Virus record (IMG/VR): IMGVR_UViG_3300043567_000426
Span: 1 to 61,014 of that record
Reading direction: 5' to 3' (one strand)
Source of the DNA: a virus
Lineage: Duplodnaviria; Caudoviricetes
DNA: 61,014 bases
In this document: piece after piece, positions 12,455 to 50,151 of the stretch
Position numbering within the stretch: position 1 is the first letter of the stretch
How the letters are laid out: every line of letters begins with the position of its first letter
Made by a program: the position numbers and the translations under genes
Notes under the pieces: generated by a model
What the model was told of the DNA's origin: nothing
What the model saw: only the letters and a program-made list of their open reading frames with translations
Database searches by the model: none

Positions 12455-14723
<2,269 letters not shown>

Positions 14724-39704: not shown

Positions 39705-40031
39705 TCAACTAAATTCATTCTCTAGCGAATAAATTAAGGAGCGCCATTTAGTGATCATTACGCCATGAACAGTCAAGGTCTTTGCTCTTGCTACACCAGC
39801 ATGCTCAACAATTTCATTCTTGGCGGCTTTCCTAGCAATGCTGCCCCAAGCCCTATTATCGCCGTTCATAATGATGTCTGTTCTAAATTTGCGAACATCT
39901 TCTGTCGTAAAGAACGGATGATATCTGGCATATTCTACAAAAGCATCATATGCCGAATCTTTCCAATCATCACCGCAATTATCTGCGGCAATCTCAGCCA
40001 TCTCGTGGCCGATCTTTAAGCCCTCATTCAT
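39705..40031 (-). CDS. Hypothetical protein
   Basis: FTTEDVR...RAWG......A...W.S pattern seen in phage proteins. Confidence 0.55.
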   Translation of the reverse strand: MNEGLKIGHEMAEIAADNCGDDWKDSAYDAFVEYARYHPFFTTEDVRKFRTDIIMNGDNRAWGSIARKAAKNEIVEHAGVARAKTLTVHGVMITKWRSLIYSLENEFS

Positions 40032-40246
40032 CTCAAACCTCTATCTCGATTTACACTTTGTCAAAGAGTTACTTACTCTAACGCATTCTACTTTTGATTG
40101 AATGCCATCGCTTTTATAATAATATCCATTTGTATCAATGTTCCTTAAAGGGACGGAACAGGACATTAAACCTAAAGCTAGAATGCCGATTAATAGCCCA
40201 TAGAAGAGCACTTTCTCTATGAATATAATCATGCGGCCTCCTTTGG

Positions 40247-40858
40247 TTACGCATTCACCCTTGTGACTCGCGCATTCCAGCGCGGTGTTTCTACGATAAG
40301 AGTTGGGTCTTTCGCGTCTTGGGTGAGGAAGGTTGTTGCGATCGGCCCTATGCCAAGGGCCATCCAATAACGGGCGCCAGTAGATGGCTTATCGCCCCAT
40401 GATTGAAGGTATGAGAACTTCAATACATCTTGGTAATATACACCAAGAACATTCATTTGTGAAATCTCTTCTTCAAAAGCGACAATCTGAGCGCCATGCC
40501 CTGTCGCTGGCGGCCAGCATTTGAAAAAATCAAATTGCGGGTAATTGATATAATTACCGCCAATGCGCACCATCTCGCCCCAGCCGATCGGCGGGTTCAA
40601 GACCACTTTCTTTCCGCCGGGATAATCATCGCGCCATTCGGCAATGCCAAATCCAGTTCTATATTGATAGAACCATTTATTCAGCCATGTTCCTGCCGAA
40701 TCGTAATTATTGTAAAGCATGCTGTCGCTGCCGACGTCATAGCTAAACACAGACGTAAATGGCGGCACGGTAGAATCTTCGCTGACATAATCAAAACGGC
40801 GAAGCTCGTGCGTTTTAAACAATGGCCAATATGCAGGAACAAAAATATTATTGCTCAT
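40247..40858 (-). CDS. Hypothetical aromatic-rich protein
   Basis: Start re-set to MSNNIF, coupled to the upstream gene. Confidence 0.55.
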   Translation of the reverse strand: MSNNIFVPAYWPLFKTHELRRFDYVSEDSTVPPFTSVFSYDVGSDSMLYNNYDSAGTWLNKWFYQYRTGFGIAEWRDDYPGGKKVVLNPPIGWGEMVRIGGNYINYPQFDFFKCWPPATGHGAQIVAFEEEISQMNVLGVYYQDVLKFSYLQSWGDKPSTGARYWMALGIGPIATTFLTQDAKDPTLIVETPRWNARVTRVNA

Positions 40859-41054
40859 TTTCAGCCTCGATAAGTTCGACTTTTTCTCTAATGATTTTAA
40901 ACCGCGCGCCAATTGTTCTAGCATTTGACTTTCCATCCAAAGCTTCTGCCATCTGGCTATATGTCAAGCCCTGCTTACGCAGATCCAACAGCGTCTCTTC
41001 ATAAGGCGTCAGTCTTGCAGGATCTTTTAAATGATGCGTTACATCAACAGTCAT
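40848..41054 (-). CDS. Small HTH protein
   Basis: LTPYE...LR.QGLTY.QMAE.L, sigma-4/LuxR-like HTH. Confidence 0.55.
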   Translation of the reverse strand: MTVDVTHHLKDPARLTPYEETLLDLRKQGLTYSQMAEALDGKSNARTIGARFKIIREKVELIEAENEQ

Positions 41055-41691
41055 AGTCGCCCTCTCTCTCCAGTTGTTTGCGGCATGGCGGTATCCAGCG
41101 AAGAACAGTTGTCTTTTCTACGTCTGGCAAATGGTCAATATACCAAACGAGCCAGCAATAGCTGGTTGCCGTTGACGCTTTCTTGTCAATGCGCCCTTTG
41201 ACCATTGGCACACGCTCAGAAAACTGCGCGACGATGTCTGGAGGGTTTTTGAGATACATCGTTTGATAGCGCATGCATCCTTCAAGAAAAGATGTGCGCA
41301 CCAACATGGCGACTCCGTCTGTCGCTATTCTTTGCGATTTTTCAATAAATTGCTGCGCTTTATTAAACGGCGGATTGGTAATGATCCAATTAAACAAACC
41401 GCGAGTATCATCAGCGTTAAGAAAATCGCAAATAGCCTTTTGCCCATAGTCATAAATATCTGACTCCGCAACAGCTTTAAAATACTCTTGTAATGGCCGG
41501 GACATAAAGCCCCGATTAACTGCCGGCTCCCATACGTTACAATCAGCAACGCGATCTTTGCCAATAATATGCTCAATAAGAGCTCTTGTCGCCCAGGGAG
41601 GAGTTGGGAAATCGTCCAGGCTATTTTTATCTTCAATGCGTTGAGAGATAACGGCGTTAGATCTATTCCCTAGTGTGTTTGTCACTTTCAT
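41044..41691 (-). CDS. DNA amino-methyltransferase (N6-adenine type)
   Basis: DDFPTP.W, WEPA...G.M, SDI.DYG, ITNPPF catalytic motif. Start uncertain. Confidence 0.8.
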   Translation of the reverse strand: MKVTNTLGNRSNAVISQRIEDKNSLDDFPTPPWATRALIEHIIGKDRVADCNVWEPAVNRGFMSRPLQEYFKAVAESDIYDYGQKAICDFLNADDTRGLFNWIITNPPFNKAQQFIEKSQRIATDGVAMLVRTSFLEGCMRYQTMYLKNPPDIVAQFSERVPMVKGRIDKKASTATSYCWLVWYIDHLPDVEKTTVLRWIPPCRKQLEREGDYDC

Positions 41692-41902
41692 ATACCTCAA
41701 TATCAATAATATCATCGCGTTTCGGAGCGCGAACTACACCTATATCATTTTCTGGCATTACGGGCAATCCTTCGCCGCCCCAGCGGTAAAGCGAAGCATA
41801 TGCCGCATGAGGATAGCCAAGATCTGCTTCATAAACCCAGCCCTTATCCTCAAAGACTTTCTGCCGATGATGCGGCACATAAGCATAAACTTTATCAGCC
41901 AT
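41663..41902 (-). CDS. Hypothetical protein
   Basis: Likely start MADKVYAYV, overlapping the upstream stop. Confidence 0.45.
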   Translation of the reverse strand: MADKVYAYVPHHRQKVFEDKGWVYEADLGYPHAAYASLYRWGGEGLPVMPENDIGVVRAPKRDDIIDIEVYESDKHTRE

Positions 41903-42197
41903 CTTTGCGCTTTCCGCCGCCGTAGACCTTGTAGGACTTGTTATAGTAGTGTCCGTTATGTTGTTCAGCAACTCTATAAATGTGTAAGACAGTAGAATGA
42001 TCGCGCCCAAAAAGACGGCCAATGCGAGCAAAGCTAAAATCTGTTTCTTTCTTGATTCGCCAAATAGCGCGGGTGCGCGCCTGTCGCAAATGAAGATGCG
42101 GGTTTTTTCCGATGATTTCATCTAATGAAACCTTATATTCCGCCGCCACTTCTTTTAATATTTTATGGGCGTAAACTTTAACGGGCTTTTCTTCCAT
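41895..42197 (-). CDS. DnaA domain-IV-like (Bac_DnaA_C) HTH protein
   Basis: AR..A....K.....S...IGR.FGRDHSTVLH signature. Confidence 0.8.
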   Translation of the reverse strand: MEEKPVKVYAHKILKEVAAEYKVSLDEIIGKNPHLHLRQARTRAIWRIKKETDFSFARIGRLFGRDHSTVLHIYRVAEQHNGHYYNKSYKVYGGGKRKDG

Positions 42198-42238
42198 ATC
42201 AATTCTCAAAGGAAAAGGGCGCTTTTGGCGCCCTAGTA

Positions 42239-42661
42239 TTATTCTGGGATATCAAGCTCTGCGCTGACGTTTGCCATCGCTTGCTTCAGCGCGTCTTCGC
42301 TTATTGCTTTTGTTTGCGCGCCTTTCTTTCCTGCAAAAGGGAGCGTGTTCTCCGGCAAATTAATACCGCGCAGCCCAAGATCAGATGGATTGGCCCTTGG
42401 CGTTTCTGTCGCAAAGTGGCCAGCAAACGCAACGTAGTTGATCTTATCCTGCCAGCTATCAATTTTGGTCTTGTCATGCATCAAGCGCGCAGTCTTAACA
42501 AAATCCATGACCATAGCAATTTCAAACGGCGTTACTTCACGCTCAAAGAACACAGAAGCTAAAGCAGCAGCGCGGCCAAAACATTTTTCTGGAGCGCCAT
42601 AGTCGCTGCCGCGCTCAGTTAAGATGCCGGCTGACGACGTTAATATTGTATCATATCTCAT
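42239..42661 (-). CDS. DUF6378-like phage protein
   Basis: RG.DYG.P...F...A......K.AR......DSW.D..NY. Confidence 0.65.
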   Translation of the reverse strand: MRYDTILTSSAGILTERGSDYGAPEKCFGRAAALASVFFEREVTPFEIAMVMDFVKTARLMHDKTKIDSWQDKINYVAFAGHFATETPRANPSDLGLRGINLPENTLPFAGKKGAQTKAISEDALKQAMANVSAELDIPE

Positions 42662-42915
42662 ATCAATTTCTCCTGACTATTGAATACTTTTACCTTGCCA
42701 ACATATCGATGGTTAAGCGCAACATGACCACGGCTATAATATTCTGCATCTACTCTATCTTTGTAAAATTCCTCAACAATCACATAATCGTTATTGTTAA
42801 GCGCATTCACAAAGTCATCAAGGCTTGTTGACTCTTTATGCTCAACTTGCATTTGATGGACTAAATGGCCAGAATAGCTTGGCATATTCATCGTAACCAA
42901 AAAACGCATGTCCAT
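42658..42915 (-). CDS. Hypothetical protein
   Basis: Coupled ORF in the leftward operon. Confidence 0.5.
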   Translation of the reverse strand: MDMRFLVTMNMPSYSGHLVHQMQVEHKESTSLDDFVNALNNNDYVIVEEFYKDRVDAEYYSRGHVALNHRYVGKVKVFNSQEKLI

Positions 42916-43009
42916 TCCTTATGTGAGCGGGGTGTGACGCTGCTTTGCGGATAACATCACACCCCTTTATTAGGTAGCATTGGTTGGGCCGTGCTACCTA
43001 ATTACTTAA

Positions 43010-43672
43010 TCAACCAAAGTCGTCCATGCTTGGCGCAGATACGCGGGTTGATCCTGTTGATGGAGGCGTGGAGACCGACACCGTAACGGTATCTGAGGCA
43101 CTCGAACTACGCGCCTGATAAACGAGATCGTCTGGACGCGAAACCCAGCCAGTAATCTCGAAAACAGGAACGTAGTTCGTGCTCCTCGTGGCCCCTTCTC
43201 CAGAGGTCTCTGCATAACTGTCGTTCATTGTTACGACAGGTAACTTTCCAGCGTTCTTCTTGACGCCTTCTAAATATTCTCCATACAGCTTCTTGGCTGC
43301 TTTAACGAATGCTTTCGCGTTCGATGCAAGTTCGCGAACGTCGCCTCCACAGTCCTTCGCAAGCTTGACGATAACACGCACACCCTTCTTGTATCCATCT
43401 CCTGGGTTTGCGACGGGATCTCCATCTGCGAGGCGCGCAACTCTGAAGTCGGGAGCCATGCCAGCGGCAAAGCGAATATAGCCGCCTTCAAGATTCTCAA
43501 AGTCAAAAACTGCTTTAAACGTGCGTGAAATATCATGGCTATGGTTCTCTCCGCCTTCACGATCAATACGCGCCATTCTACCAGAACGCGCATCATATTT
43601 AACGATAGGAAGAAAGTCTGCGCCACCGGCGCCATTGCCACCAACATCATCAAAAAAAGAAAAGCCACTCAT
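43010..43672 (-). CDS. Probable ssDNA-binding protein
   Basis: Adjacent to the exonuclease; NY.PVFEITGWV.RP motif, flexible tail ending DDFG. Confidence 0.55.
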   Translation of the reverse strand: MSGFSFFDDVGGNGAGGADFLPIVKYDARSGRMARIDREGGENHSHDISRTFKAVFDFENLEGGYIRFAAGMAPDFRVARLADGDPVANPGDGYKKGVRVIVKLAKDCGGDVRELASNAKAFVKAAKKLYGEYLEGVKKNAGKLPVVTMNDSYAETSGEGATRSTNYVPVFEITGWVSRPDDLVYQARSSSASDTVTVSVSTPPSTGSTRVSAPSMDDFG

Positions 43673-43734
43673 GCTTTTGCTCCATTATGTAGTGATCTGG
43701 CCCACTACTCGCCTTCGCCCGATATGGGCAATTC

Positions 43735-44490
43735 CTATATTCCCCAAATCTCAAAAGCAGCTTGCGCTGTATCTGGATCGTTAAAGTAAAAGCTATCGCG
43801 CTCTGGCACCACAAATGATGCAAGCTCCGCTGGATCTTTCGATAAAGATAAAAACCGCTGTATCGTTAAGGCGATTCGTTCAACGGCTTTGACATGCTCT
43901 GCAATATTTTCAAGCCTATATGTTGCGCACTTTTTTGGCGTGACGTAGGTAAGGCGGCCATCAATATCCCCACCCGTCGCTGCACAGTAAAGGGCAACTT
44001 GACGCGCATGTTTGTTCGAGATTTTAGACGGTAATGCATGGGTTGTCTTCAGATCGACCAGAATTTTACTTTGTTCCCAAAATAAATCGTAATACCCAAT
44101 GATCGGCACTGACAGCCAATCGACGCGATATTCGATCTTACCTTGGGTCGAGGATGGTGCCCCATACGGCGCAAGCTCTTGCAAGCCGATTTTAACCATC
44201 TCTCCAACAGCGGATTTTTCTTTTTCGGATCGTGGGTCACTAGATAATACGTTAAGGCGCCAAAATTCTTTTTCCGCGACATCGACGCATTCCTTCTCGC
44301 TTGCGCCAGTTGTTAACCCATGAACAATACCTGTCTCTACAGATGTGCCTCTGTGCGCAGCTGCTCCTACCTGTCCTTTTTTCTTGAACACATAGGACAA
44401 TAGAAACGCGGCCGGAGAAGCCTCGTAAAGATTGCATGATGAAGATGATAGGTGTTCTATGCCGTGCGCGGCAAACGCGTCATTAACCAC
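43735..44490 (-). CDS. PD-(D/E)XK exonuclease (PDDEXK_1 / Cas4-like)
   Basis: HLS.SS, G..D.......DLKT, Q.ALY; start re-set to the GTG after a GAGG RBS. Confidence 0.75.
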   Translation of the reverse strand: MVNDAFAAHGIEHLSSSSCNLYEASPAAFLLSYVFKKKGQVGAAAHRGTSVETGIVHGLTTGASEKECVDVAEKEFWRLNVLSSDPRSEKEKSAVGEMVKIGLQELAPYGAPSSTQGKIEYRVDWLSVPIIGYYDLFWEQSKILVDLKTTHALPSKISNKHARQVALYCAATGGDIDGRLTYVTPKKCATYRLENIAEHVKAVERIALTIQRFLSLSKDPAELASFVVPERDSFYFNDPDTAQAAFEIWGI

Positions 44491-44519
44491 TTCTACCTCA
44501 ATTTCGATTTGATGGCCTA

Positions 44520-44548
44520 ACATAGCCACCCAGATTTTTTCAGTCAAG
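44520..44548 (-). promoter_or_regulatory. Alphaproteobacterial sigma70-type promoter for the leftward operon
   Basis: CTTGAC-N17-CTATGT on the minus strand. Confidence 0.6.
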
Positions 44549-44652
44549 CGCCAAAAAAGTGTTTGACAAAAGATTTTTTCCATTTAACCCTATATACACT
44601 GTGACGTATCGATATTGAATTAGGTGCTCTATGCAAAACACAAGTTCATCAT

Positions 44653-44737
44653 CGCATCTTGTCGAGCCTCGCGGCGTCACTGTGTCGCGTAACGCAAGGT
44701 TGCGTGGCGCGTCGTATCTCAATGCCTTACAACGCAA
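44653..44737 (+). ncRNA. Pentamer tract U1 (17 x [CGC-like + NN]); putative guide RNA
   Basis: cgcAT cttGT cgaGC ctcGC ggcGT cacTG tgtCG cgtAA cgcAA ggtTG cgtGG cgcGT cgtAT ctcAA tgcCT tacAA cgcAA. Confidence 0.75.
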
Positions 44738-44770
44738 CGTTTATCTAACGCAAACTAAATGGAGATTGAA

Positions 44771-45340
44771 ATGAGAATGTGCCGTATTAAAATTAAATCC
44801 ATCACGCCTTATTCAGCATCGCGTCCTGTCGATATTGAGAGAAATAAATCGGAAGGCCATGAGGAATTTGACAAGCGCATTTGGCGCGAGAAAGCGCACT
44901 TCACAAAAGATGAAGATGTTTTTATTCCCGGCGTTTCTTTCAAGCTGGCATTGGATGAAGTTGCATCTATGCTTAATGAAAAGATCAAAGGTAAAGGCAA
45001 TCAGACTTACGGAAAGATTGTTTCCACAGCAACTGTAGCAATGAGTGATCTTTTTATTAGTGTTAAAAAATCAGATCTAAAATCTATCACGATCTTTGCT
45101 AACCTTGATGGCAAGCGCGGCGGAACTGTTCGCGGAAATAGAACTTTCCCTATTGTGCCATCATGGGAAGGATCTGTTGATTTCCAGATCTTTAATGATG
45201 AACTTCCTGCGGAAGTCTTTGAGCGTTATATGACGCAAGCCGGATTGCTTACAGGCGTAGGCCGTGGGCGTCCGGGCATGAAGGCCCCTGCGGGTAATGG
45301 TCGTTTCCAGCCAATATCTTTTGAGTGGTCGGAAATTTAA
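44771..45340 (+). CDS. Stand-alone RAMP / Cas7-like protein
   Basis: N-terminal strand IKIKSITP, FIPGVSFKLAL (cf. IPGSSLKGAL in Cas7-group RAMPs), C-terminal G-rich loop GVGRGRP...GNGRF; 189 aa; no other cas genes nearby. Confidence 0.75.
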   Translation: MRMCRIKIKSITPYSASRPVDIERNKSEGHEEFDKRIWREKAHFTKDEDVFIPGVSFKLALDEVASMLNEKIKGKGNQTYGKIVSTATVAMSDLFISVKKSDLKSITIFANLDGKRGGTVRGNRTFPIVPSWEGSVDFQIFNDELPAEVFERYMTQAGLLTGVGRGRPGMKAPAGNGRFQPISFEWSEI

Positions 45341-45344
45341 TATT

Positions 45345-45601
45345 CGCACCATGACGTTTCGCCACGCGGCGCGACTCTTCTATCTGCAACGCAACGATAG
45401 ACAGGAGTTAACATCAAAAATGCTAGAGATCTATTTAAAAAATAGAAAGGTTTAACATCGCCTCGAAACTAATTGCGACGAAGCTAACCGTGGCGACACG
45501 CTGCGCAATACAACGCAACGGTTCATTAGACAATTTATTGTCGCTCTGTGCCGACCCGCGTCGTTACGCATCTTGACGAGTCGCGTAGCAACTCAACGCA
45601 A
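45345..45601 (+). ncRNA. Pentamer tracts U2 (45345-45394), U3 (45459-45518) and U4 (45542-45601)
   Basis: 10, 12 and 12 in-phase units, each ending in AA units with a final CGCAA; AT-rich linkers. Confidence 0.75.
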
Positions 45602-45622
45602 CAAATCACCAAGGAGAGTAAA

Positions 45623-46114
45623 ATGCCTAGAAGGCCAATGTTTAAGCAATCAGAAGAGACAATAAAAATTATTGCTCTCTTTAAGGAAATGCCGATTGGT
45701 AAGGAAATATCGTATCAAGACGCATCAGCAATCGTAGGGTTTAAGATAACGTCAACGCTTCCAGCATATCAGACAGCAAAGAAAGCTGCGGAGCGGGATC
45801 ATAACGTCGTTGTAGAAAGCATCAGAAGCTTTGGCTTTGTGCGCATTGACGGCACTGGCATGGTCGATCGCGCAAGCCGATTCTTTAAGAAAGTTCGCAA
45901 GGGCTCGCGCCGGGAGGCCCATGTGCAGGAAATCGCCATAACCACAAATCTCACGCGCGGTCAAATGATAACCGCGACTGAGCAGCTATCGCGCTTACGA
46001 ATATTAGAGACGACCGCATCAAGAGTTAAGTCTAGTAAAAACAAAGACGATGATGCGCTAAATAATTTTGTGTTTGACAATAGAGAAGCTTTGAAGGCTC
46101 TATTGACGAAATAA
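45623..46114 (+). CDS. Basic 163-aa unknown protein embedded in the pentamer array
   Basis: AAGGAG RBS before ATG 45623; flanked on both sides by tracts. Confidence 0.65.
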   Translation: MPRRPMFKQSEETIKIIALFKEMPIGKEISYQDASAIVGFKITSTLPAYQTAKKAAERDHNVVVESIRSFGFVRIDGTGMVDRASRFFKKVRKGSRREAHVQEIAITTNLTRGQMITATEQLSRLRILETTASRVKSSKNKDDDALNNFVFDNREALKALLTK

Positions 46115-46116
46115 TG

Positions 46117-46596
46117 CGGGACGCTGCTCGACGCTTTGCCGCGCGGCGCTTCTTGGCGACTTGTCGCTAATCGTAACGCCCGATTCTGCAACTCAACGCA
46201 ACGGTTCATTAGATGATTTACTACCGCAACGCTACACGCCTAGTCTTCCTGCAACGCTCTGCTCCGCATCTTAGCGCGCCTCAGTGTCACGCAACACAAC
46301 GCAACGGTTTATTTGTCAATTTACCCTCGCGGCTCATCGCACTACCCCTCAACGCAACGCAGGGTGGCGCTCTGCAACTCAACGCAACGGTTCATTATGC
46401 AATTTATTCACGCCGCTAATCGCATTGTGCCTCAACGCACTGCGTCGTGTCGCCGTGCAACTCAACGCAACGGTTCATTATGAAATTTATCTCCGTCACG
46501 CTTGGCTCCTCGCCGTATTGCATCGTTTCTCAGCATGGCGCACAGTCACGCACAGCACGGCTCCTTGACGCTACGCCCAGCAACTCAACGCAACGG
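46117..46596 (+). ncRNA. Pentamer tracts U5-U9 (46117-46201, 46225-46304, 46328-46387, 46411-46470, 46494-46593)
   Basis: 17, 16, 12, 12 and 20 in-phase units; shared end GCAAC(T/A)CAACGCAACGG followed by a TTCATTA..AATTTA-like linker. Confidence 0.85.
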
Positions 46597-46604
46597 AATA
46601 TTAA

Positions 46605-47060
46605 ATGACTGAAGCATGCATCATGGGAATAGATCCCGGCGTCTCTGGCGCCGTGGCATTTTATTTTCCAGATTACCCTAATAGAATTTCGGTATATGAT
46701 GCGCCATCGGTAGGGAAAGAAATTAATGCTCCAGCACTTGCGCAGCTTATTAAACAATATAGCCCAACAATTTGTTATATCGAATCAGTCAACGCAATGC
46801 CAAAGCAAGGCGTCACAAGCAGCTTCAACTTCGGACAAGCATATGGCTGCGTTCGAGGAGTGGTTGCAGCGTGTGGAGTTCCGACTGTTTTGGTAAGCCC
46901 ACGAAAGTGGAAAAGCTTTTTTGCTTTGGATTCGGATAAAGAAAAATCCAGAAGACTAGCAATAATGAAATGGCCTGATGGCGGTCATTTTAACAGAAAG
47001 AAAGATGACGGCCGCGCGGAAGCGGCCTTGATTGCTTTATATGGGAGCAAACAGTTATGA
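46605..47060 (+). CDS. RuvC-like Holliday junction resolvase
   Basis: GIDPG..GA, IE.V.AMP.QGV.S.FNFG, P..WK, DGRAEA.LIA. Confidence 0.85.
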   Translation: MTEACIMGIDPGVSGAVAFYFPDYPNRISVYDAPSVGKEINAPALAQLIKQYSPTICYIESVNAMPKQGVTSSFNFGQAYGCVRGVVAACGVPTVLVSPRKWKSFFALDSDKEKSRRLAIMKWPDGGHFNRKKDDGRAEAALIALYGSKQL

Positions 47061-47362
47061 GTGATTTTACTAATCTTTTAGAAAAATTGCGCAGCGAGCA
47101 TAACGACCCTTGGCAAGTAAATCCTGCCGCAAAGATAGCGGCCGACGCTATTGAATGGCTGGTAAAAGAAATCAATAATTTACGCGAAATGAGCGTTGCA
47201 GAAGAAGTTTTAGCAAATCAAATTAGAAAAGAAATTAGAGAAGATGAGCGTGAGCGTTGCGCAAAAATTGCGGAGCAGTTTTTATCAAATAACGAGCCGG
47301 TGCGCTTGACCGCAAGCAGTATAGCTGCCGCTATTAGGGAGAGAAGTAATGGGACTATTTGA
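47057..47362 (+). CDS. Hypothetical protein
   Basis: Coupled ORF; ERERCAKIAE...IAAAIR pattern common in phages. Confidence 0.55.
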   Translation: MSDFTNLLEKLRSEHNDPWQVNPAAKIAADAIEWLVKEINNLREMSVAEEVLANQIRKEIREDERERCAKIAEQFLSNNEPVRLTASSIAAAIRERSNGTI

Positions 47363-47729
47363 CAGCCCTTGGCTTAGTAAAGAAGATCATGAGCGGCTTG
47401 TCCATCTCAATCTTATTGGCCAAGTCAATATGCTTAATCTGCATAACTACGAGCTACAGGCTAAATTGGAAATGGCGCGTGGTAGGATAGTAGAACTAGA
47501 ACATCAACTGAAAGTTGAATGTGACACCTATCTCTGGAATCGCAAACTAATGTCGAGACGCATTGCGTCCTTACAGGGATGGATGAAGAAATTATTCAAA
47601 TACGGCAGTTCGTCGGAAGCAATACGCAATCAAATGACAATGACGACAGAGATACCCGACACATTGATGCGGGAAGGTGAGGATATTTTAATTGAAATAA
47701 CGCCAGCATTGGAGAACGGTAAAGAATAA
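47349..47729 (+). CDS. Hypothetical coiled-coil protein
   Basis: Coupled ORF. Confidence 0.5.
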   Translation: MGLFDSPWLSKEDHERLVHLNLIGQVNMLNLHNYELQAKLEMARGRIVELEHQLKVECDTYLWNRKLMSRRIASLQGWMKKLFKYGSSSEAIRNQMTMTTEIPDTLMREGEDILIEITPALENGKE

Positions 47730-47865
47730 AAAAGACGGCGTAGTTGGAGCTACGCCGTCGCCAGAAGTCTGGGAAGTCTCGATAAGTTTTTATAATGCAT
47801 TCTGTTAAGGAATGCAACATTTCCCCGACTCTGGTGGACAGTAAAAAACGCCAGAGGATAATAAA

Positions 47866-50151
47866 ATGATCGACTTCGATGATGAATATGCAAGCATTCG
47901 GCAATGGGCCAGAATGTATTTCGATCTTGGGCTGCAAGTTGTTCCTGCTTACAAGCCAGGAGAGCGCGATCAGTGGAAGCGCCCAGCGTTAAAGAACTGG
48001 ACGCATCTGCAAAAGCTGAAAATGTCTGAGGAGGATTTCAATCAATGGTGGGGGGATCATGGCGAGTTCGTTAACAGACATAGCCTTGGCTTCATTAATG
48101 GTTATGTTTCTGGCGATGTCTTTACTATTGATATAGACAGCTACAAAGACACCAACGCGGCCCTATGGCTCGAAGAAGCGCAAAACCTATTCAACGAAGG
48201 TAAGCTATTTAATACGCCAACGCAGACAACTGGCGGCGGCGGCAAGCAGCTTCTATTCAGAGCGCCTCCAGGTTGGTCGCCGCCAACATCAGCAAACCCT
48301 GTTATGGGAATTGATATCAGAGGCGAAGGCGGCTTTGCGATGTTGCCGCCATCTAATCATACGTCAGGCAAGCAATACGCATGGGATGATGATTATGAGC
48401 CATGGACCACACCCATCATGGAGGCTCCAGAAGGTTTCTGCGCAGCCATTGATGAGCTCTTTGGGCGGTTTAACAATAACCTTGGCGCAACGTCTCTAAC
48501 ACAAAAGGCGCTTTCAACGATTAAGATGCCAACGCCGGCATATAAGGAGGATGCTTTTGGTGGCGTAATTGATGGCCGTGAAGATCTGATGTTTCGATGG
48601 GTGTTTAAAGCATTAGTTGTTTTACACATCGAAACAAATGGCGAAGCGCCAACGGTAGATCAGGAAAGAGAAAGCTTTGAGCGGCTTTGCAAGTATTGGA
48701 TCGACAAGGTTGATTGCCAAGACCAGAACCCACCGCCGGGCTTAACAAAAGAACAGCTGCTAGACAGAGAAAACAGAGGGCCAAAATTACTCTGGAGCAA
48801 ATGGCGCCATACAATGCAGAAGCATTGGGCGGGGCGCATTGCGGAGGCGGCAAGAAATCCTAGAGAGGGTTTTAAAAGCCAGAAGGTAAATAAGCCGGAG
48901 CTCTACGATAGTTTTGATGAGATTGATTCTGAGCCTTCCGATTCGGAAGATTTTGTAGCGCCAAAGAAGAAGCTCTTCATCTTTAAAGATATGGAAGACA
49001 TTGAAAACTTCGTCCCGCCAAAAACGCTTGTCTCCTCAACCATCATCGAAAACAGCCTTGGCTTTTTCTTTGGAGCACCAGGTTCCGGCAAGACGTTCGT
49101 CTGCACATCCCTAGCTTTGTCGATCGCATATGGCGTTAAGAAGTGGTTTTGGAACACAATAATAGAGCGCCACGGTCCTGTGATTTACATCAGCACGGAA
49201 GGCACAAGCGATGTCAGGTTCCGCATAGAGGCGTGGAAGAAGCACCATAAATTAAAACGAAGAGCGCCTTTCTACCTCTTGGATGAAACGGTCAATTTCC
49301 TAGAGCGCGAAAGCGTCAACATGCTGATGGAATCAATAAAGAGCTTAATCCAGAACAAATTAGGCGGGGAAATGCCGGTGGCCATTTTTGTCGATACGGT
49401 TTCAAGGACGATCGCGGGAGCCGATGAGAATGGCCAAAAGGACATGACAAAATTTGTCGAGGTCTGCGACAAGATCCGGCGCGTCTTCAAAACCACGGTC
49501 ATCGGCGTTCACCACACCGGGCGCCAAGGCGAGACCATGCGCGGCTCAACGGTGCTAGACGGCGCTGCTGATTTCCTCATGCTGGTGAGCAGGCAGGATG
49601 GCTCCGAAAACGGAATCATCAGAGCGGAGAAGATCAAAGCCTTCAGAGACAAATGGGAGAAGCCATTCGCCTTAAAGCATATGGATTTAGGAGACATATG
49701 GAGCGAGGGTTCTCTGGTGGCTACTGACGTAGGCCCAGAGCCAAACACGGCGCCAGGAGCCTTTGGGGGCCCGCAGGAGACAGGTTTCTACCAAGCCGGC
49801 CCGATCAGGCTAACGATCGAAGAGAGAGACAATATCATAGCCTCTATAAAAGAGGATTGGGATGCATATCGCCCTTGGTCTATGGCGAGGAACATGAAGC
49901 TAGATCCACGCCATGCCTACCGCAGGCTGCATGCCGTAACGAAGCGCAGACTGAGCGAATCAAATTCATACGGGGTGATTTCTGCGTTCATTGATTCGGG
50001 TTTTGTATCCGAAGGAATACGAGATTCAAAAACCAAATTGAAGGGATTGAAAATAATTTTTGACCCCAAAAAAGCTACGGAAGTAAGCCAAAATAATTAC
50101 GGAGATGCGGAAGGAACTACCGTCTCTGAACCTAATGAAAACAACGACTAA
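47866..50151 (+). CDS. Bifunctional primase-polymerase fused to AAA_25/RepA-like helicase
   Basis: IDID, T.GGG...LF, IDIRG.GG...LPPS.H.SG..Y.W; Walker A GAPGSGKT; FVDT, HHTG, RGS..L. Confidence 0.85.
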   Translation: MIDFDDEYASIRQWARMYFDLGLQVVPAYKPGERDQWKRPALKNWTHLQKLKMSEEDFNQWWGDHGEFVNRHSLGFINGYVSGDVFTIDIDSYKDTNAALWLEEAQNLFNEGKLFNTPTQTTGGGGKQLLFRAPPGWSPPTSANPVMGIDIRGEGGFAMLPPSNHTSGKQYAWDDDYEPWTTPIMEAPEGFCAAIDELFGRFNNNLGATSLTQKALSTIKMPTPAYKEDAFGGVIDGREDLMFRWVFKALVVLHIETNGEAPTVDQERESFERLCKYWIDKVDCQDQNPPPGLTKEQLLDRENRGPKLLWSKWRHTMQKHWAGRIAEAARNPREGFKSQKVNKPELYDSFDEIDSEPSDSEDFVAPKKKLFIFKDMEDIENFVPPKTLVSSTIIENSLGFFFGAPGSGKTFVCTSLALSIAYGVKKWFWNTIIERHGPVIYISTEGTSDVRFRIEAWKKHHKLKRRAPFYLLDETVNFLERESVNMLMESIKSLIQNKLGGEMPVAIFVDTVSRTIAGADENGQKDMTKFVEVCDKIRRVFKTTVIGVHHTGRQGETMRGSTVLDGAADFLMLVSRQDGSENGIIRAEKIKAFRDKWEKPFALKHMDLGDIWSEGSLVATDVGPEPNTAPGAFGGPQETGFYQAGPIRLTIEERDNIIASIKEDWDAYRPWSMARNMKLDPRHAYRRLHAVTKRRLSESNSYGVISAFIDSGFVSEGIRDSKTKLKGLKIIFDPKKATEVSQNNYGDAEGTTVSEPNENND

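What the first reader, a model, noticed from the sequence alone, without database searches (positions are those of the whole stretch)
44653..44737. Tract U1 decodes (antisense) to the catalytic H-x-x-R box of tyrosine recombinases
Seen: NN = AT GT GC GC GT TG CG AA AA TG GG GT AT AA CT. The reverse complement with a 1-nt gap is AGn TTn ATn ACn CCn CAn TTn TTn CGn CAn ACn GCn GCn ACn ATn, i.e. (R/S)(F/L)(I/M) T P (H/Q)(F/L)(F/L) R (H/Q) T A A T (I/M). Established: TPHxLRHTxAT is the box II catalytic motif of tyrosine recombinases. Two independent tracts pointing to the same protein family, one per strand, support the gapped code and favour dsDNA over mRNA as the target. I found no integrase in this genome, so the targets would be foreign. 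Caveat: 18 tract/orientation readings were inspected and many positions are two-fold ambiguous.
Basis: partly seen in the sequence, partly recalled or inferred. Interest (0 to 1): 0.92.

Follow-up and report, generated by a model that had tools for sequence, protein, structure and literature searches.

The report
Phage guide RNA aimed at integrases
This stretch is one guide RNA of a recently described phage system (VIPR) that reads DNA two bases out of every three, and its variable bases spell the catalytic "box II" codons of a tyrosine integrase, so an integrase-less lake phage probably uses it to silence the integrase of a rival mobile element.

Summary
44650-44739 (+) is a run of 16 five-base units (Y-NN-C-G) closed by CAACGCAACG. 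It is one of nine such tracts (44650-46595), all on the + strand. They flank a 189-aa Cas7-like RAMP gene and a 163-aa accessory gene. This is the architecture of VIPR systems, published as preprints in 2026: a Vipr RAMP, a vap gene, and vrRNAs whose NN dinucleotides pair with dsDNA while skipping every third base. Here the fixed triplet is CGY, not GGY.

Read that way, V1 gives [RS][FL][IM]TP[HQ][FL][FL]R[HQ]TAAT[IM][IM]. Against a box II matrix built from 27 independently chosen integrases it scores 30.7 bits. None of 20,000 randomisations reached this in any of three null models. The exact tail is about 1e-8 per window.

Only the 1-nt skip gives DNA matches, and they lie in frame at box II. 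The best natural integrase genes match 78-83% of NN positions; none matched 90% or more. The claimed second integrase-pointing tract is not supported. The phage has no integrase.

Verdict: a new member of a known kind, with a plausible but unconfirmed anti-integrase guide.

The parts
44650..44729 (+). Putative vrRNA guide region.
   Evidence: The NN are identical in a 97-99% identical relative, whose only two substitutions in the tract fall at fixed (non-NN) positions. No other letters seen in contigs of 4 lake-water runs.
44730..44739 (+). Constant 3' element CAACGCAACG (two cAAcg units) that closes every tract. Probable 3' handle.
   Evidence: 10 exact copies, all on the + strand, within 44730-46594. 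Conserved in relatives down to 40% protein identity.
44771..45340 (+). vipr-like gene: 189-aa minimal RAMP (Cas7/Csm3-like) with invariant G-loop GVGRGRP.
   Evidence: AF2 pLDDT 93.5, pTM 0.88. Foldseek PDB top hits are type VII Cas7, Cmr4 and Csm3, E 3e-8 to 1e-6. BFVD top hit is a phage 'RAMP superfamily protein', E 2.3e-7. hhalign to the ORF I take to be SUSP1 Vipr gives prob 84.5%, E 6.9e-6 over 72 C-terminal columns. 68 homologues, no Pfam domain.
45342..45396 (+). V2: 9 units plus CAACGCAACG, directly after the vipr stop codon.
45456..45520 (+). V3: 7 strict units (from 45476) to 11 loose units (from 45456), plus CAACGCAACG. Followed by spacer GTTCATTAGACAATTTAT.
45539..45603 (+). V4: 10 units, then cAAct and CAACGCAACA, ending about 20 nt before the start codon of the accessory gene.
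45623..46114 (+). Accessory (vap-like) gene, 163 aa, probably a winged-helix-like DNA binder. Not detectably related to SUSP1 Vap1.
   Evidence: 53 homologues. AF2 pLDDT 84 with the order H-beta-H-H-beta-beta. Foldseek found nothing at E<=0.001; the weak top hits are GntR, MecI and OmpR-type winged helices. hhalign versus the presumed SUSP1 vap1 gives prob 0.55%. No Pfam family.
46114..46595 (+). Array of five tracts: V5 46114-46203, V6 46222-46306, V7 46325-46389, V8 46408-46472, V9 46491-46595. Each ends in CAACGCAACG. They are separated by ~18-nt spacers GTTYATTnnnnnATTTAY.
   Evidence: (83-nt tandem repeat). Cassette content differs in near-identical relatives. One cassette (46373-46455) is missing in contigs of 2 of 4 runs. 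No conserved secondary structure in the spacer.

Best explanation
The locus 44650-46595 is a VIPR (Viral Interference Programmable Repeat) system of an uncultured, integrase-less lake-water phage. It holds a minimal Cas7-like RAMP (Vipr), a small winged-helix-like accessory protein and nine vrRNA tracts.

Mechanism, inferred by analogy with SUSP1 VIPR:
- One Vipr protomer binds each five-base unit of the transcript.
- The protomer sequesters the fixed triplet (here C-G-Y rather than G-G-Y) and presents the two variable bases.
- The NN pairs then read a double-stranded DNA target two bases out of every three.
- The bound filament blocks transcription.

V1 (the finding) is complementary, under that rule, to the coding strand of the box II region of a tyrosine recombinase gene, ...[R/S][F/L][I/M]-T-P-H-[F/L][F/L]-R-H-T-A-A-T-[I/M][I/M]. 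The skipped base falls at the wobble position.

The most likely function is to silence the integrase/excisionase recombinase of a competing prophage, satellite or other integrative element in the same host. The competitor then cannot excise or integrate, and it cannot escape by synonymous mutation.

Shown here: the anatomy, the fold, the family conservation, the statistical match to box II and the skip-1 specificity. Inferred: transcription, RNP assembly, DNA binding, repression and the identity of the real target.
For: 1. Published framework. VIPR consists of a phage RAMP, a vap gene and vrRNAs of 9-16 YNNGG units with a 3' tail. It follows a 1-nt skip rule with wobble-aligned targets on either strand, and represses transcription (10.64898/2026.04.26.720920, Results and three Methods sections read). 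In the cryo-EM structures one protomer binds per repeat (10.64898/2026.04.26.720927, first part of Results).

2. Protein. AF2 gives pLDDT 93.5. Foldseek top hits are Cas7-family subunits. hhalign to the ORF I take to be SUSP1 Vipr gives 84.5%, E 6.9e-6.

3. RNA anatomy. There are nine co-directional period-5 tracts, one upstream of vipr and the others downstream, as in the SUSP1 locus that I read directly. The anatomy is conserved next to the homologous gene in 9 of the 10 non-near-identical viral relatives (L010-L019; no tract upstream of L019, though two were parsed downstream) and in L020 and L021 of the 3 genome loci; no tract was parsed in L022.

4. Box II. V1 antisense scores 30.7 bits on a 13-column matrix built from 27 box II segments. 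These came from 30 PF00589 loci in 5 genomes chosen without reference to V1. None of 20,000 randomisations reached this: maxima were 27.1 (within-tract shuffle), 22.2 (pooled NN) and 24.0 (uniform NN). The exact tail is 1.3e-8 per window (uniform NN), over 40 windows. Against the whole-integrase profile it scores 32.7 bits, placed at VTPHDLRHSFAT.

5. Skip rule. In the same panel's DNA (197,314 bases counting both strands), skip 1 gives 23, 23, 23, 21 and 19 of 32, all in frame at box II. Skips 0, 2 and 3 reach at most 19. Shuffled unit order reaches 23 in 2 of 500 trials.

6. Natural sequences.
- Nine-unit seed in viral contigs: 15 hits, 14 in integrase ORFs.
- Metagenome seed: 27 hits, 11 in integrase ORFs.
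- TPHxxRHTAAT[IM][IM] pattern: 1 hit, an integrase.

7. No PF00589 in the phage, and no self-target at 80% or more for the long guides.

8. Precedent. SUSP1 vrRNA4 targets active-site codons of a satellite recombinase and blocks excision (10.64898/2026.10.15.759431, passages).
Against: No natural sequence matches V1 well:
- 0 exact hits for the 15-unit pattern in viral contigs or metagenome contigs.
- 0 for the 11-unit core in viral contigs.
- 0 for [RS][FL][IM]TPHxxRHTAAT in viral contigs.
- 0 of 3 and 0 of 401 genomes at up to 3 mismatches.

The best natural matches (78-83% of NN positions) only just reach the published 80% criterion. They were found through seeds that themselves encode the motif. 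In collections this large, 80% of 30 positions is by my own estimate also reached by unrelated DNA.

At protein level, the best of the 120 listed integrases (of 556 scoring E<=10 among 573 candidates) is compatible at 12 of 16 positions. In the independent panel none of the 27 reaches 80%.

Only 7 of V1's 16 units have a perfect YNNCG frame.

No target was found for any other guide. The V9 probe gave 11 hits, all at chance level.

There is no RNA evidence, and no binding or repression data for a CGY-type system. The look-elsewhere cost of recognising one motif among many cannot be computed exactly here.
Confidence: 0.72

Rival explanations
1. V1 is a genuine vrRNA, but the box II reading is a coincidence. 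Its real target is some other sequence in a competitor that the collections do not hold.
For: No natural match of 90% or more was found. Several decoded positions are two-fold ambiguous. The other eight guides decode to nothing recognisable.
Against: The exact tail of about 1e-8 per window over 40 windows gives about 5e-7 for this motif. Even 10,000 equally informative motifs would give about 0.005. None of 20,000 randomisations reached the score. The skip-1-only, in-frame behaviour on an independent panel is what a real coding target predicts.
Confidence: 0.12
2. V1 acts on the integrase mRNA (antisense pairing that blocks translation or promotes decay) rather than on DNA.
For: V1's NN are complementary to the coding strand, and therefore to the mRNA. 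VIPR filaments can pair with ssRNA targets in vitro (10.64898/2026.04.26.720927).
Against: In the same study ssRNA gave mostly incomplete 7-subunit assemblies (66% of particles), and triplex formation needed DNA. In SUSP1, guides against either DNA strand repress. Nothing at this locus distinguishes the two possibilities.
Confidence: 0.08
3. The tract is mainly a cis-acting leader of the vipr operon, where Vipr binds its own 5' UTR for autoregulation or processing. Its NN have no trans target.
For: V1 ends about 25 nt before the vipr ribosome-binding site. In relatives almost every gene of the operon is preceded by a tract plus CAACGCAACG. Some relatives' upstream tracts have low-complexity NN.
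Against: This does not explain the box II signal. The two roles are not exclusive. SUSP1 also has one expressed vrRNA upstream of vipr.
Confidence: 0.06
4. The tract is not a guide at all: it is a TRAP-like or iteron-like array, in which a multimeric protein reads the conserved triplets and the NN are mere spacers. This was my first working idea.
For: The period-5 pattern of a conserved triplet plus a 2-nt spacer resembles TRAP binding sites (recalled knowledge, no call).
Against: The adjacent protein is a Cas7-like RAMP related to the presumed SUSP1 Vipr. The published system has the same anatomy and its NN carry the specificity. The NN of V1 carry a highly non-random signal.
Confidence: 0.02

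Closest known systems
VIPR type II system of Escherichia phage SUSP1 (bioRxiv 10.64898/2026.04.26.720920 and 10.64898/2026.04.26.720927)
   Same: - Phage-encoded two-gene locus: a ~190-aa single-RRM RAMP plus a small accessory protein.
- One period-5 tract upstream of the genes and an array downstream, all co-directional with vipr.
- Three fixed bases plus two variable bases per unit.
- C-terminal G-loop region alignable with the ORF I take to be SUSP1 Vipr.
- The 1-nt skip reading gives an in-frame coding target.
   Different: - The fixed triplet is C-G-Y, not G-G-Y.
- The G-loop is GVGRGRP where the presumed SUSP1 Vipr has GVGDWRP. D177 and W178, which read G1 and G2 in SUSP1, align with an invariant R and G here.
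- The 3' end is a constant CAACGCAACG plus an ~18-nt spacer with no conserved structure, not a ~40-nt pseudoknotted tail.
- Tracts also sit between the genes.
- The accessory protein is unrelated to the presumed SUSP1 Vap1.
- There is no BLAST-level similarity to any cultured phage.
SUSP1 vrRNA4 against the F5 satellite excision recombinase (bioRxiv 10.64898/2026.10.15.759431; passages seen)
   Same: A phage guide aimed, wobble-aligned, at codons of a recombinase's catalytic core. The competitor cannot excise and cannot escape without damaging its own enzyme.
   Different: That target is a large serine recombinase, with a six-unit (18-bp) footprint next to the catalytic Ser, and it was verified experimentally. 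Here the predicted target is box II (H-x-x-R) of a tyrosine recombinase, the guide has 16 units, and the real target element is unknown.
Non-canonical VIPR arrays (YNNNG, NNNGG and NNNNG in 10.64898/2026.04.26.720920 Methods; GAC/NN, CAC/NN, WGT/NN and TGH/NN in 10.64898/2026.10.21.760802)
   Same: Period-5 arrays with a fixed triplet other than GGY, next to a Vipr-like fold. YNNCG fits the published YNNNG class.
   Different: Neither text names CGY or CGC (0 occurrences). The figures and supplements that list the motifs could not be seen, so I cannot say whether this clade is already catalogued.
Class 1 CRISPR backbone subunits (Cas7: Csm3, Cmr4, type VII Cas7)
   Same: RRM core, G-rich loop and thumb. 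These are the best structural matches. They form a helical filament on a guide RNA with periodic base flipping (literature).
   Different: There are no CRISPR repeats, no Cas5, Cas6, Cas10, Cas1 or Cas2 genes, and no second RRM. The period is 5 with 2 paired bases, not 6 with 5 paired bases. No Pfam RAMP model is matched.

Membership tests
VIPR system | Minimal RAMP (Vipr): a single RRM with G-loop and thumb, about 190 aa | tested here: met
   AF2 pLDDT 93.5. Foldseek gives Cas7-family hits at E ~3e-8, with 141 chains at E<=0.001. hhalign to the ORF I take to be SUSP1 Vipr gives prob 84.5%, E 6.9e-6, but over the C-terminal 72 columns only.
VIPR system | vrRNA made of tandem pentanucleotide units, three fixed bases plus NN, 9-16 units (canonical YNNGG) | tested here: met
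   Nine tracts of 7-19 units in period 5. The fixed part is CGY (YNNCG), which departs from canonical GGY but fits the published alternative class YNNNG. V1 is degenerate: 7 of 16 units are perfect.
VIPR system | Invariable, structured 3' tail (a pseudoknot in the SUSP1 clade) | tested here: inconclusive
   An invariable 3' element exists (CAACGCAACG). The following spacer shows no conserved fold: RNAalifold gives -0.89 kcal/mol, 2 invariant pairs and no covariation over 8 sequences.
VIPR system | Adjacent accessory gene (vap) with a predicted DNA-interacting fold | tested here: inconclusive
   A conserved 163-aa gene follows vipr. The model has a winged-helix-like order of elements. No Foldseek hit at E<=0.001 and no similarity to the presumed SUSP1 Vap1.
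VIPR system | Encoded by a virus or provirus | tested here: met
   The window is a complete 61-kb virus record. It carries a RuvC-like resolvase, a primase-helicase and a PD-(D/E)XK nuclease. The nearest Atlas clusters are viral.
VIPR system | Targets follow the 1-nt skip rule, mostly wobble-aligned in coding sequence | tested here: met
   Tested in silico and for V1 only. Skip 1 gives in-frame box II matches (23/32). Skips 0, 2 and 3 give at most 19/32. Shuffles reach 23 in 2 of 500 trials.
VIPR system | No self-targeting at 80% or more NN match | tested here: met
   With the array masked, the long guides reach at most 56-68% at skip 1. Only the 7- and 9-unit tracts reach 72-79%, as expected by chance.
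VIPR system | vrRNAs are expressed, co-purify with Vipr, and the RNP binds dsDNA and represses transcription | not testable with these tools
   No RNA run is listed for this phage.
Target = tyrosine recombinase (PF00589) box II | Decoded peptide fits the box II consensus around the catalytic H-x-x-R, followed by H and a small-residue A/S-T | tested here: met
   30.7 bits against a matrix from 27 independent PF00589 box II segments, with 0 of 20,000 randomisations reaching it in three null models. Tail 1.3e-8 per window.
Target = tyrosine recombinase (PF00589) box II | A natural recombinase gene matches the guide at the published threshold (80% or more of NN positions) | tested here: inconclusive
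   The best are L032 at 26/32 (81%), or 25/30 (83%), and L037 at 25/30. The others reach 73-80%. None reaches 90% or more. The seeds used encode the motif, so this is not independent proof.
Target = tyrosine recombinase (PF00589) box II | A second guide of the array points to the same gene family | tested here: not met
   After V1 (32.7 bits) the best readings score 19.3, 17.7 (V4 antisense, catalytic-Tyr region) and 17.2 (V5 sense). All lie within the null, whose top score averaged 18.9 with a maximum of 24.2.

The most novel reading that the evidence does not exclude
V1 is not aimed at one rival. It is a motif-level, broad-spectrum anti-integrase guide. By reading only codon positions 1 and 2 of the most conserved catalytic stretch of tyrosine recombinases, one RNA lets an integrase-less lytic phage silence the integrases of a whole subfamily of prophages, satellites and integrative elements (TPH-[L/F][L/F]-RHTAAT type). 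The element that carries it cannot self-target. In effect this would be nucleic-acid recognition of a protein motif.
Probability: 0.15. Interest if true: 0.7.

Novelty: new member of a known kind. Interest (0 to 1): 0.45.

Why it matters
So the headline idea is no longer new.

Three things remain of value:
- This is a clean, conserved VIPR clade from uncultured freshwater phages whose fixed triplet is CGY. Its G-loop differs at the very residues that read G1 and G2 in the presumed SUSP1 Vipr. That makes it a natural experiment on how the protein sets the repeat frame.
- It offers a statistically strong candidate for a guide against the catalytic box II of tyrosine recombinases. This would extend the published 'hit the recombinase active site' logic from one serine recombinase of an E. 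coli satellite to the most widespread integrase family.
- It is a concrete, cheap test case: a 16-unit guide with a defined 47-bp target.

If confirmed, it would support the view that wobble-skipping lets phages target protein-level conservation in their rivals.

Tried and rejected
1. My first idea was a TRAP-like or iteron-like protein-binding array with NN as spacers. I rejected it after the fold result and the VIPR papers.

2. Rfam scan of 40000-50000 at E<=1: only a chance-level isrK hit (20.7 bits against a gathering score of 50), so no known RNA family.

3. Promoter and terminator scan of 44300-46800: no + strand promoter upstream of V1, and counts at shuffle level.

4. blastn (distant mode) of 44500-46700 against 50,697 phage records: no match. 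tblastn of Vipr against the same records: best E 0.8.

5. Target searches for V1 that found nothing:
- Exact 15-unit pattern in viral contigs and metagenome contigs.
- 11-unit core in viral contigs.
- [RS][FL][IM]TPHxxRHTAAT in viral contigs.
- Up to 3 mismatches in 3 genomes and in 401 genomes of the class of G001. The forward, reverse and control patterns all gave 0.

6. V9 middle 8 units in viral contigs: 11 hits, 18-24 of 36 positions, none extending beyond chance.

7. All window and L008 guides against all fetched loci at skips 0-3: nothing beyond chance except V1 at skip 1, and those loci had been fetched with skip-1 V1 seeds.

8. Protein search with the box II region of the L058 integrase returned close relatives of the query. 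The best of the 120 listed proteins (556 scored E<=10 among 573 candidates) is compatible with the decoding at 12 of 16 positions.

9. The second-tract claim was tested and not supported.

10. No RNA holder is listed among the 24 runs. The contigs laid cannot show RNA ends.

11. Host identity was not resolved. Relatives of Vipr occur in an Ancalomicrobiaceae MAG, a Lysobacteraceae MAG and Roseomonas. The Atlas gave only viral clusters.

12. I could not see figures or supplements (fig. S17 and data S3 of the discovery preprint; Fig. S10A of the Evo-PIN preprint). These may list a CGY-type clade or integrase targets.

Full report
WHAT IS THERE

The window is a complete 61-kb virus record. Between a leftward PD-(D/E)XK nuclease gene (43735-44583) and a rightward block holding a RuvC-like resolvase and a primase-helicase lies a 2-kb region. 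It holds all 10 exact copies of CAACGCAAC in the genome, every one on the + strand.

Laying the upstream sequence in five-base steps from each copy shows nine tracts of 7-19 units of the form Y-NN-C-G. The tracts are arranged as follows:
- V1 (44650-44739) lies upstream of a 189-aa ORF.
- V2-V4 lie between that ORF and a 163-aa ORF.
- V5-V9 form an array (46114-46595). Its ~18-nt spacers read GTTYATTnnnnnATTTAY. Tandem Repeats Finder sees this array as an 83-nt repeat.

One further unit lies upstream, and two constant cAAcg units close the tract.

WHAT THE PROTEINS ARE

The 189-aa protein has no Pfam family. It has 68 homologues among 114 candidates.

With a 37-sequence alignment, AlphaFold gives pLDDT 93.5 and pTM 0.88. 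Foldseek places the model among CRISPR backbone RAMPs: type VII Cas7, Cmr4 and Csm3, with E from 3e-8 and 141 chains at E<=0.001. In the viral library the top hit is a phage 'RAMP superfamily protein'.

The 163-aa protein has 53 homologues. Its model shows a winged-helix-like order of elements (pLDDT 84), but there is no significant structural neighbour.

THE PUBLISHED FRAMEWORK

A literature search turned up bioRxiv 10.64898/2026.04.26.720920. I read its Results and three Methods sections. It describes VIPR systems:
- They are phage-encoded, with a minimal RAMP (Vipr) and an accessory vap gene.
- Their vrRNAs have 9-16 YNNGG units and an invariable 3' tail.
- The NN dinucleotides pair with dsDNA under a '1 nt skip rule'. 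The skipped base usually falls at codon wobble.
- Targets occur on either strand, and the outcome is transcriptional repression of competing phages and satellites.

A companion structure paper (10.64898/2026.04.26.720927, first part of Results) shows one protomer per repeat. The fixed GGY is sequestered by G-loop residues D177, W178 and R179, among others.

A later preprint (10.64898/2026.10.15.759431, passages) shows that SUSP1 vrRNA4 targets active-site codons of a satellite's serine recombinase and blocks excision.

HOW THIS LOCUS COMPARES

I read the SUSP1 locus directly. It has one tract upstream and three downstream of two small genes, all co-directional. I assigned those two ORFs as vipr and vap1 from their position only, not from the paper.

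The profile of the window's RAMP family aligns with the presumed SUSP1 Vipr at 84.5% probability (E 6.9e-6) over the C-terminal 72 columns, including the G-loop. The window's locus is therefore a VIPR system.

It differs in several ways:
- The fixed triplet is CGY.
- The G-loop is GVGRGRP, invariant in 37 sequences, where the presumed SUSP1 Vipr has GVGDWRP. The residues that read G1 and G2 in SUSP1 are thus replaced. That this explains the change of triplet is my inference.
- The 3' end is a constant CAACGCAACG followed by a spacer with no conserved fold.
- The accessory protein is unrelated to the presumed SUSP1 Vap1.

Non-GGY repeat frames are already reported: YNNNG and others, and GAC/NN, CAC/NN, WGT/NN and TGH/NN. 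CGY is not named in either text, and I could not see the figures that list the motifs.

The same tracts with the same terminal CAACGCAACG accompany the homologous gene in 9 of the 10 non-near-identical viral relatives (no tract lies upstream of L019, though two were parsed downstream of it) and in L020 and L021 of the 3 genome loci, at 40-60% identity; no tract was parsed in L022.

IS THE BOX II READING MORE THAN CHANCE?

Under the published rule V1 decodes to [RS][FL][IM]TP[HQ][FL][FL]R[HQ]TAAT[IM][IM].

To avoid circularity I took 30 PF00589 loci from five genomes chosen without reference to V1. From them I extracted 27 distinct box II segments and built a position matrix.
- V1 antisense scores 30.7 bits on 13 columns.
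- None of 20,000 randomisations of all nine tracts, read both ways, reached this. The maxima were 27.1 when shuffling units within tracts, 22.2 when drawing from the pooled NN, and 24.0 with uniform NN.
- Exact convolution gives 1.3e-8 per window (uniform NN) and 3e-9 to 1e-8 (pooled NN), over 40 windows.
- Even allowing for 10,000 equally informative motifs that a reader might have recognised, the expectation stays near 0.005.

Against a profile of the whole integrase, V1 lands on VTPHDLRHSFAT with 32.7 bits. Among 45 unique tracts from the window and its relatives, read both ways, nothing else exceeds the null. The next best readings are 19.3 bits, V4 antisense at 17.7 bits on the catalytic-Tyr region, and V5 sense at 17.2 bits.

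DOES THE SKIP RULE HOLD AT DNA LEVEL?

I tested this on the DNA of the same independent panel (197,314 bases counting both strands).
- With a 1-nt skip, the five best sites for V1 score 23, 23, 23, 21 and 19 of 32. All are in frame at box II (for example VTPHTLRHTAATWM).
- Skips of 0, 2 or 3 reach at most 19.
- Shuffled unit orders reach 23 in 2 of 500 trials.

NATURAL TARGETS

Exact scans for the full 15-unit pattern found nothing in viral contigs or metagenome contigs. The 11-unit core also found nothing in viral contigs. At up to 3 mismatches, 3 genomes and 401 genomes had no match.

Shorter seeds did find natural genes:
- A nine-unit seed (H..T) found 15 viral loci. Of these, 14 lie in integrase ORFs of the type xPHLFRHTAATM.
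- A nine-unit seed (T..A) found 27 metagenome loci, 11 of them in integrase ORFs.
- TPHxxRHTAAT[IM][IM] found one viral integrase.
- [RS][FL][IM]TPHxxRHTAAT found none.

Most others lie at 75-80%. The L032, L058 and L107 ORFs are PF00589.

This only just meets the published criterion of 80%. The seeds encode the motif, and by my estimate (no call) about 4e-10 of random positions would also reach 24/30. These hits therefore show that natural integrases resemble the pattern, not that the target has been found.

A protein-level search listed integrases that are compatible at up to 12 of 16 positions.

OTHER CHECKS

- The phage has no PF00589 match at E<=1.
- With the array masked, no long guide reaches 80% on its own genome.
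- A relative 97-99% identical over the locus keeps all V1 NN. Its only two substitutions in the tract fall at fixed positions, and it carries two different cassettes in the array.
- Contigs of two of four lake-water runs lack exactly one cassette.
- No RNA run is listed.

JUDGEMENT

The locus is a VIPR system (about 0.9). V1 is a guide whose NN encode box II of a tyrosine recombinase (about 0.75-0.8 given the first). The combined confidence is 0.72.

The mechanism is inferred from SUSP1 and not shown here: Vipr polymerises on the CGY frame, the NN pair with dsDNA while skipping the wobble base, and transcription of a rival's integrase is blocked so that the rival cannot excise or integrate.

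The idea of the gapped code and of hitting a recombinase's active site is already in print. What is added is a CGY-frame clade from freshwater phages and a specific, testable anti-tyrosine-integrase guide.

Noticed in passing
window 46373-46455: Contigs from two of four lake-water DNA runs (X14, X17) join 46372 to 46456. They lack exactly one 83-nt cassette (V8 with its spacer). This is either population variation in the array or an assembly collapse of the repeat.
   Followed up: partly
L008 5500-5810 versus window 46114-46300: A relative 97-99% identical over the locus carries two vrRNA cassettes that the window lacks, and lacks the window's V5 and V8. Guide content turns over faster than the flanking genes.
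   Followed up: partly
L012, L015, L016, L017, L018 (for example L016 3971, 4610, 5140, 5370): In relatives, a tract plus CAACGCAACG sits 15-25 nt upstream of the ribosome-binding site of several successive genes, not only vipr and the accessory gene. The vrRNAs appear to be interleaved with the cistrons of one operon. This suggests processing of a polycistronic transcript at the constant element.
   Followed up: no
window 45539-45593 (V4): The antisense skip-1 reading T-T-S-[IM]-[Y*]-T-G-A-[DE]-T lands on the catalytic-tyrosine region (TTQRYTH) of the integrase profile with 17.7 bits. This is above V4's own 95% null (15.8) but within the family-wise null, so it is not significant.
   Followed up: yes
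window 45253-45273 (G-loop of the RAMP); alignment A1: The invariant GVGRGRP replaces GVGDWRP of the presumed SUSP1 Vipr at the residues that read G1 and G2 of the GGY frame in the cryo-EM structure. This may be co-variation of protein and repeat frame (CGY).
   Followed up: partly
window 13326-14415: Long runs of 9- and 18-nt tandem repeats (GGNCCNACN type) encode collagen-like Gly-X-Y repeats, presumably in a tail fibre gene.
   Followed up: no
window 43735-44583 (- strand): A PD-(D/E)XK nuclease gene, with a weak PHROG hit to 'CRISPR/Cas system associated' (Cas4-like), is transcribed divergently from V1. Whether it belongs to the VIPR module (some VIPR types carry nucleases) or to phage recombination was not examined.
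   Followed up: no
L016 3812-3861, L018 3700-3760: Some GC-rich relatives have tracts whose NN are of low complexity (CT/CA/TT/TC runs). These would specify very simple targets. They may be decoys, degenerate guides or guides to repetitive DNA.
   Followed up: no
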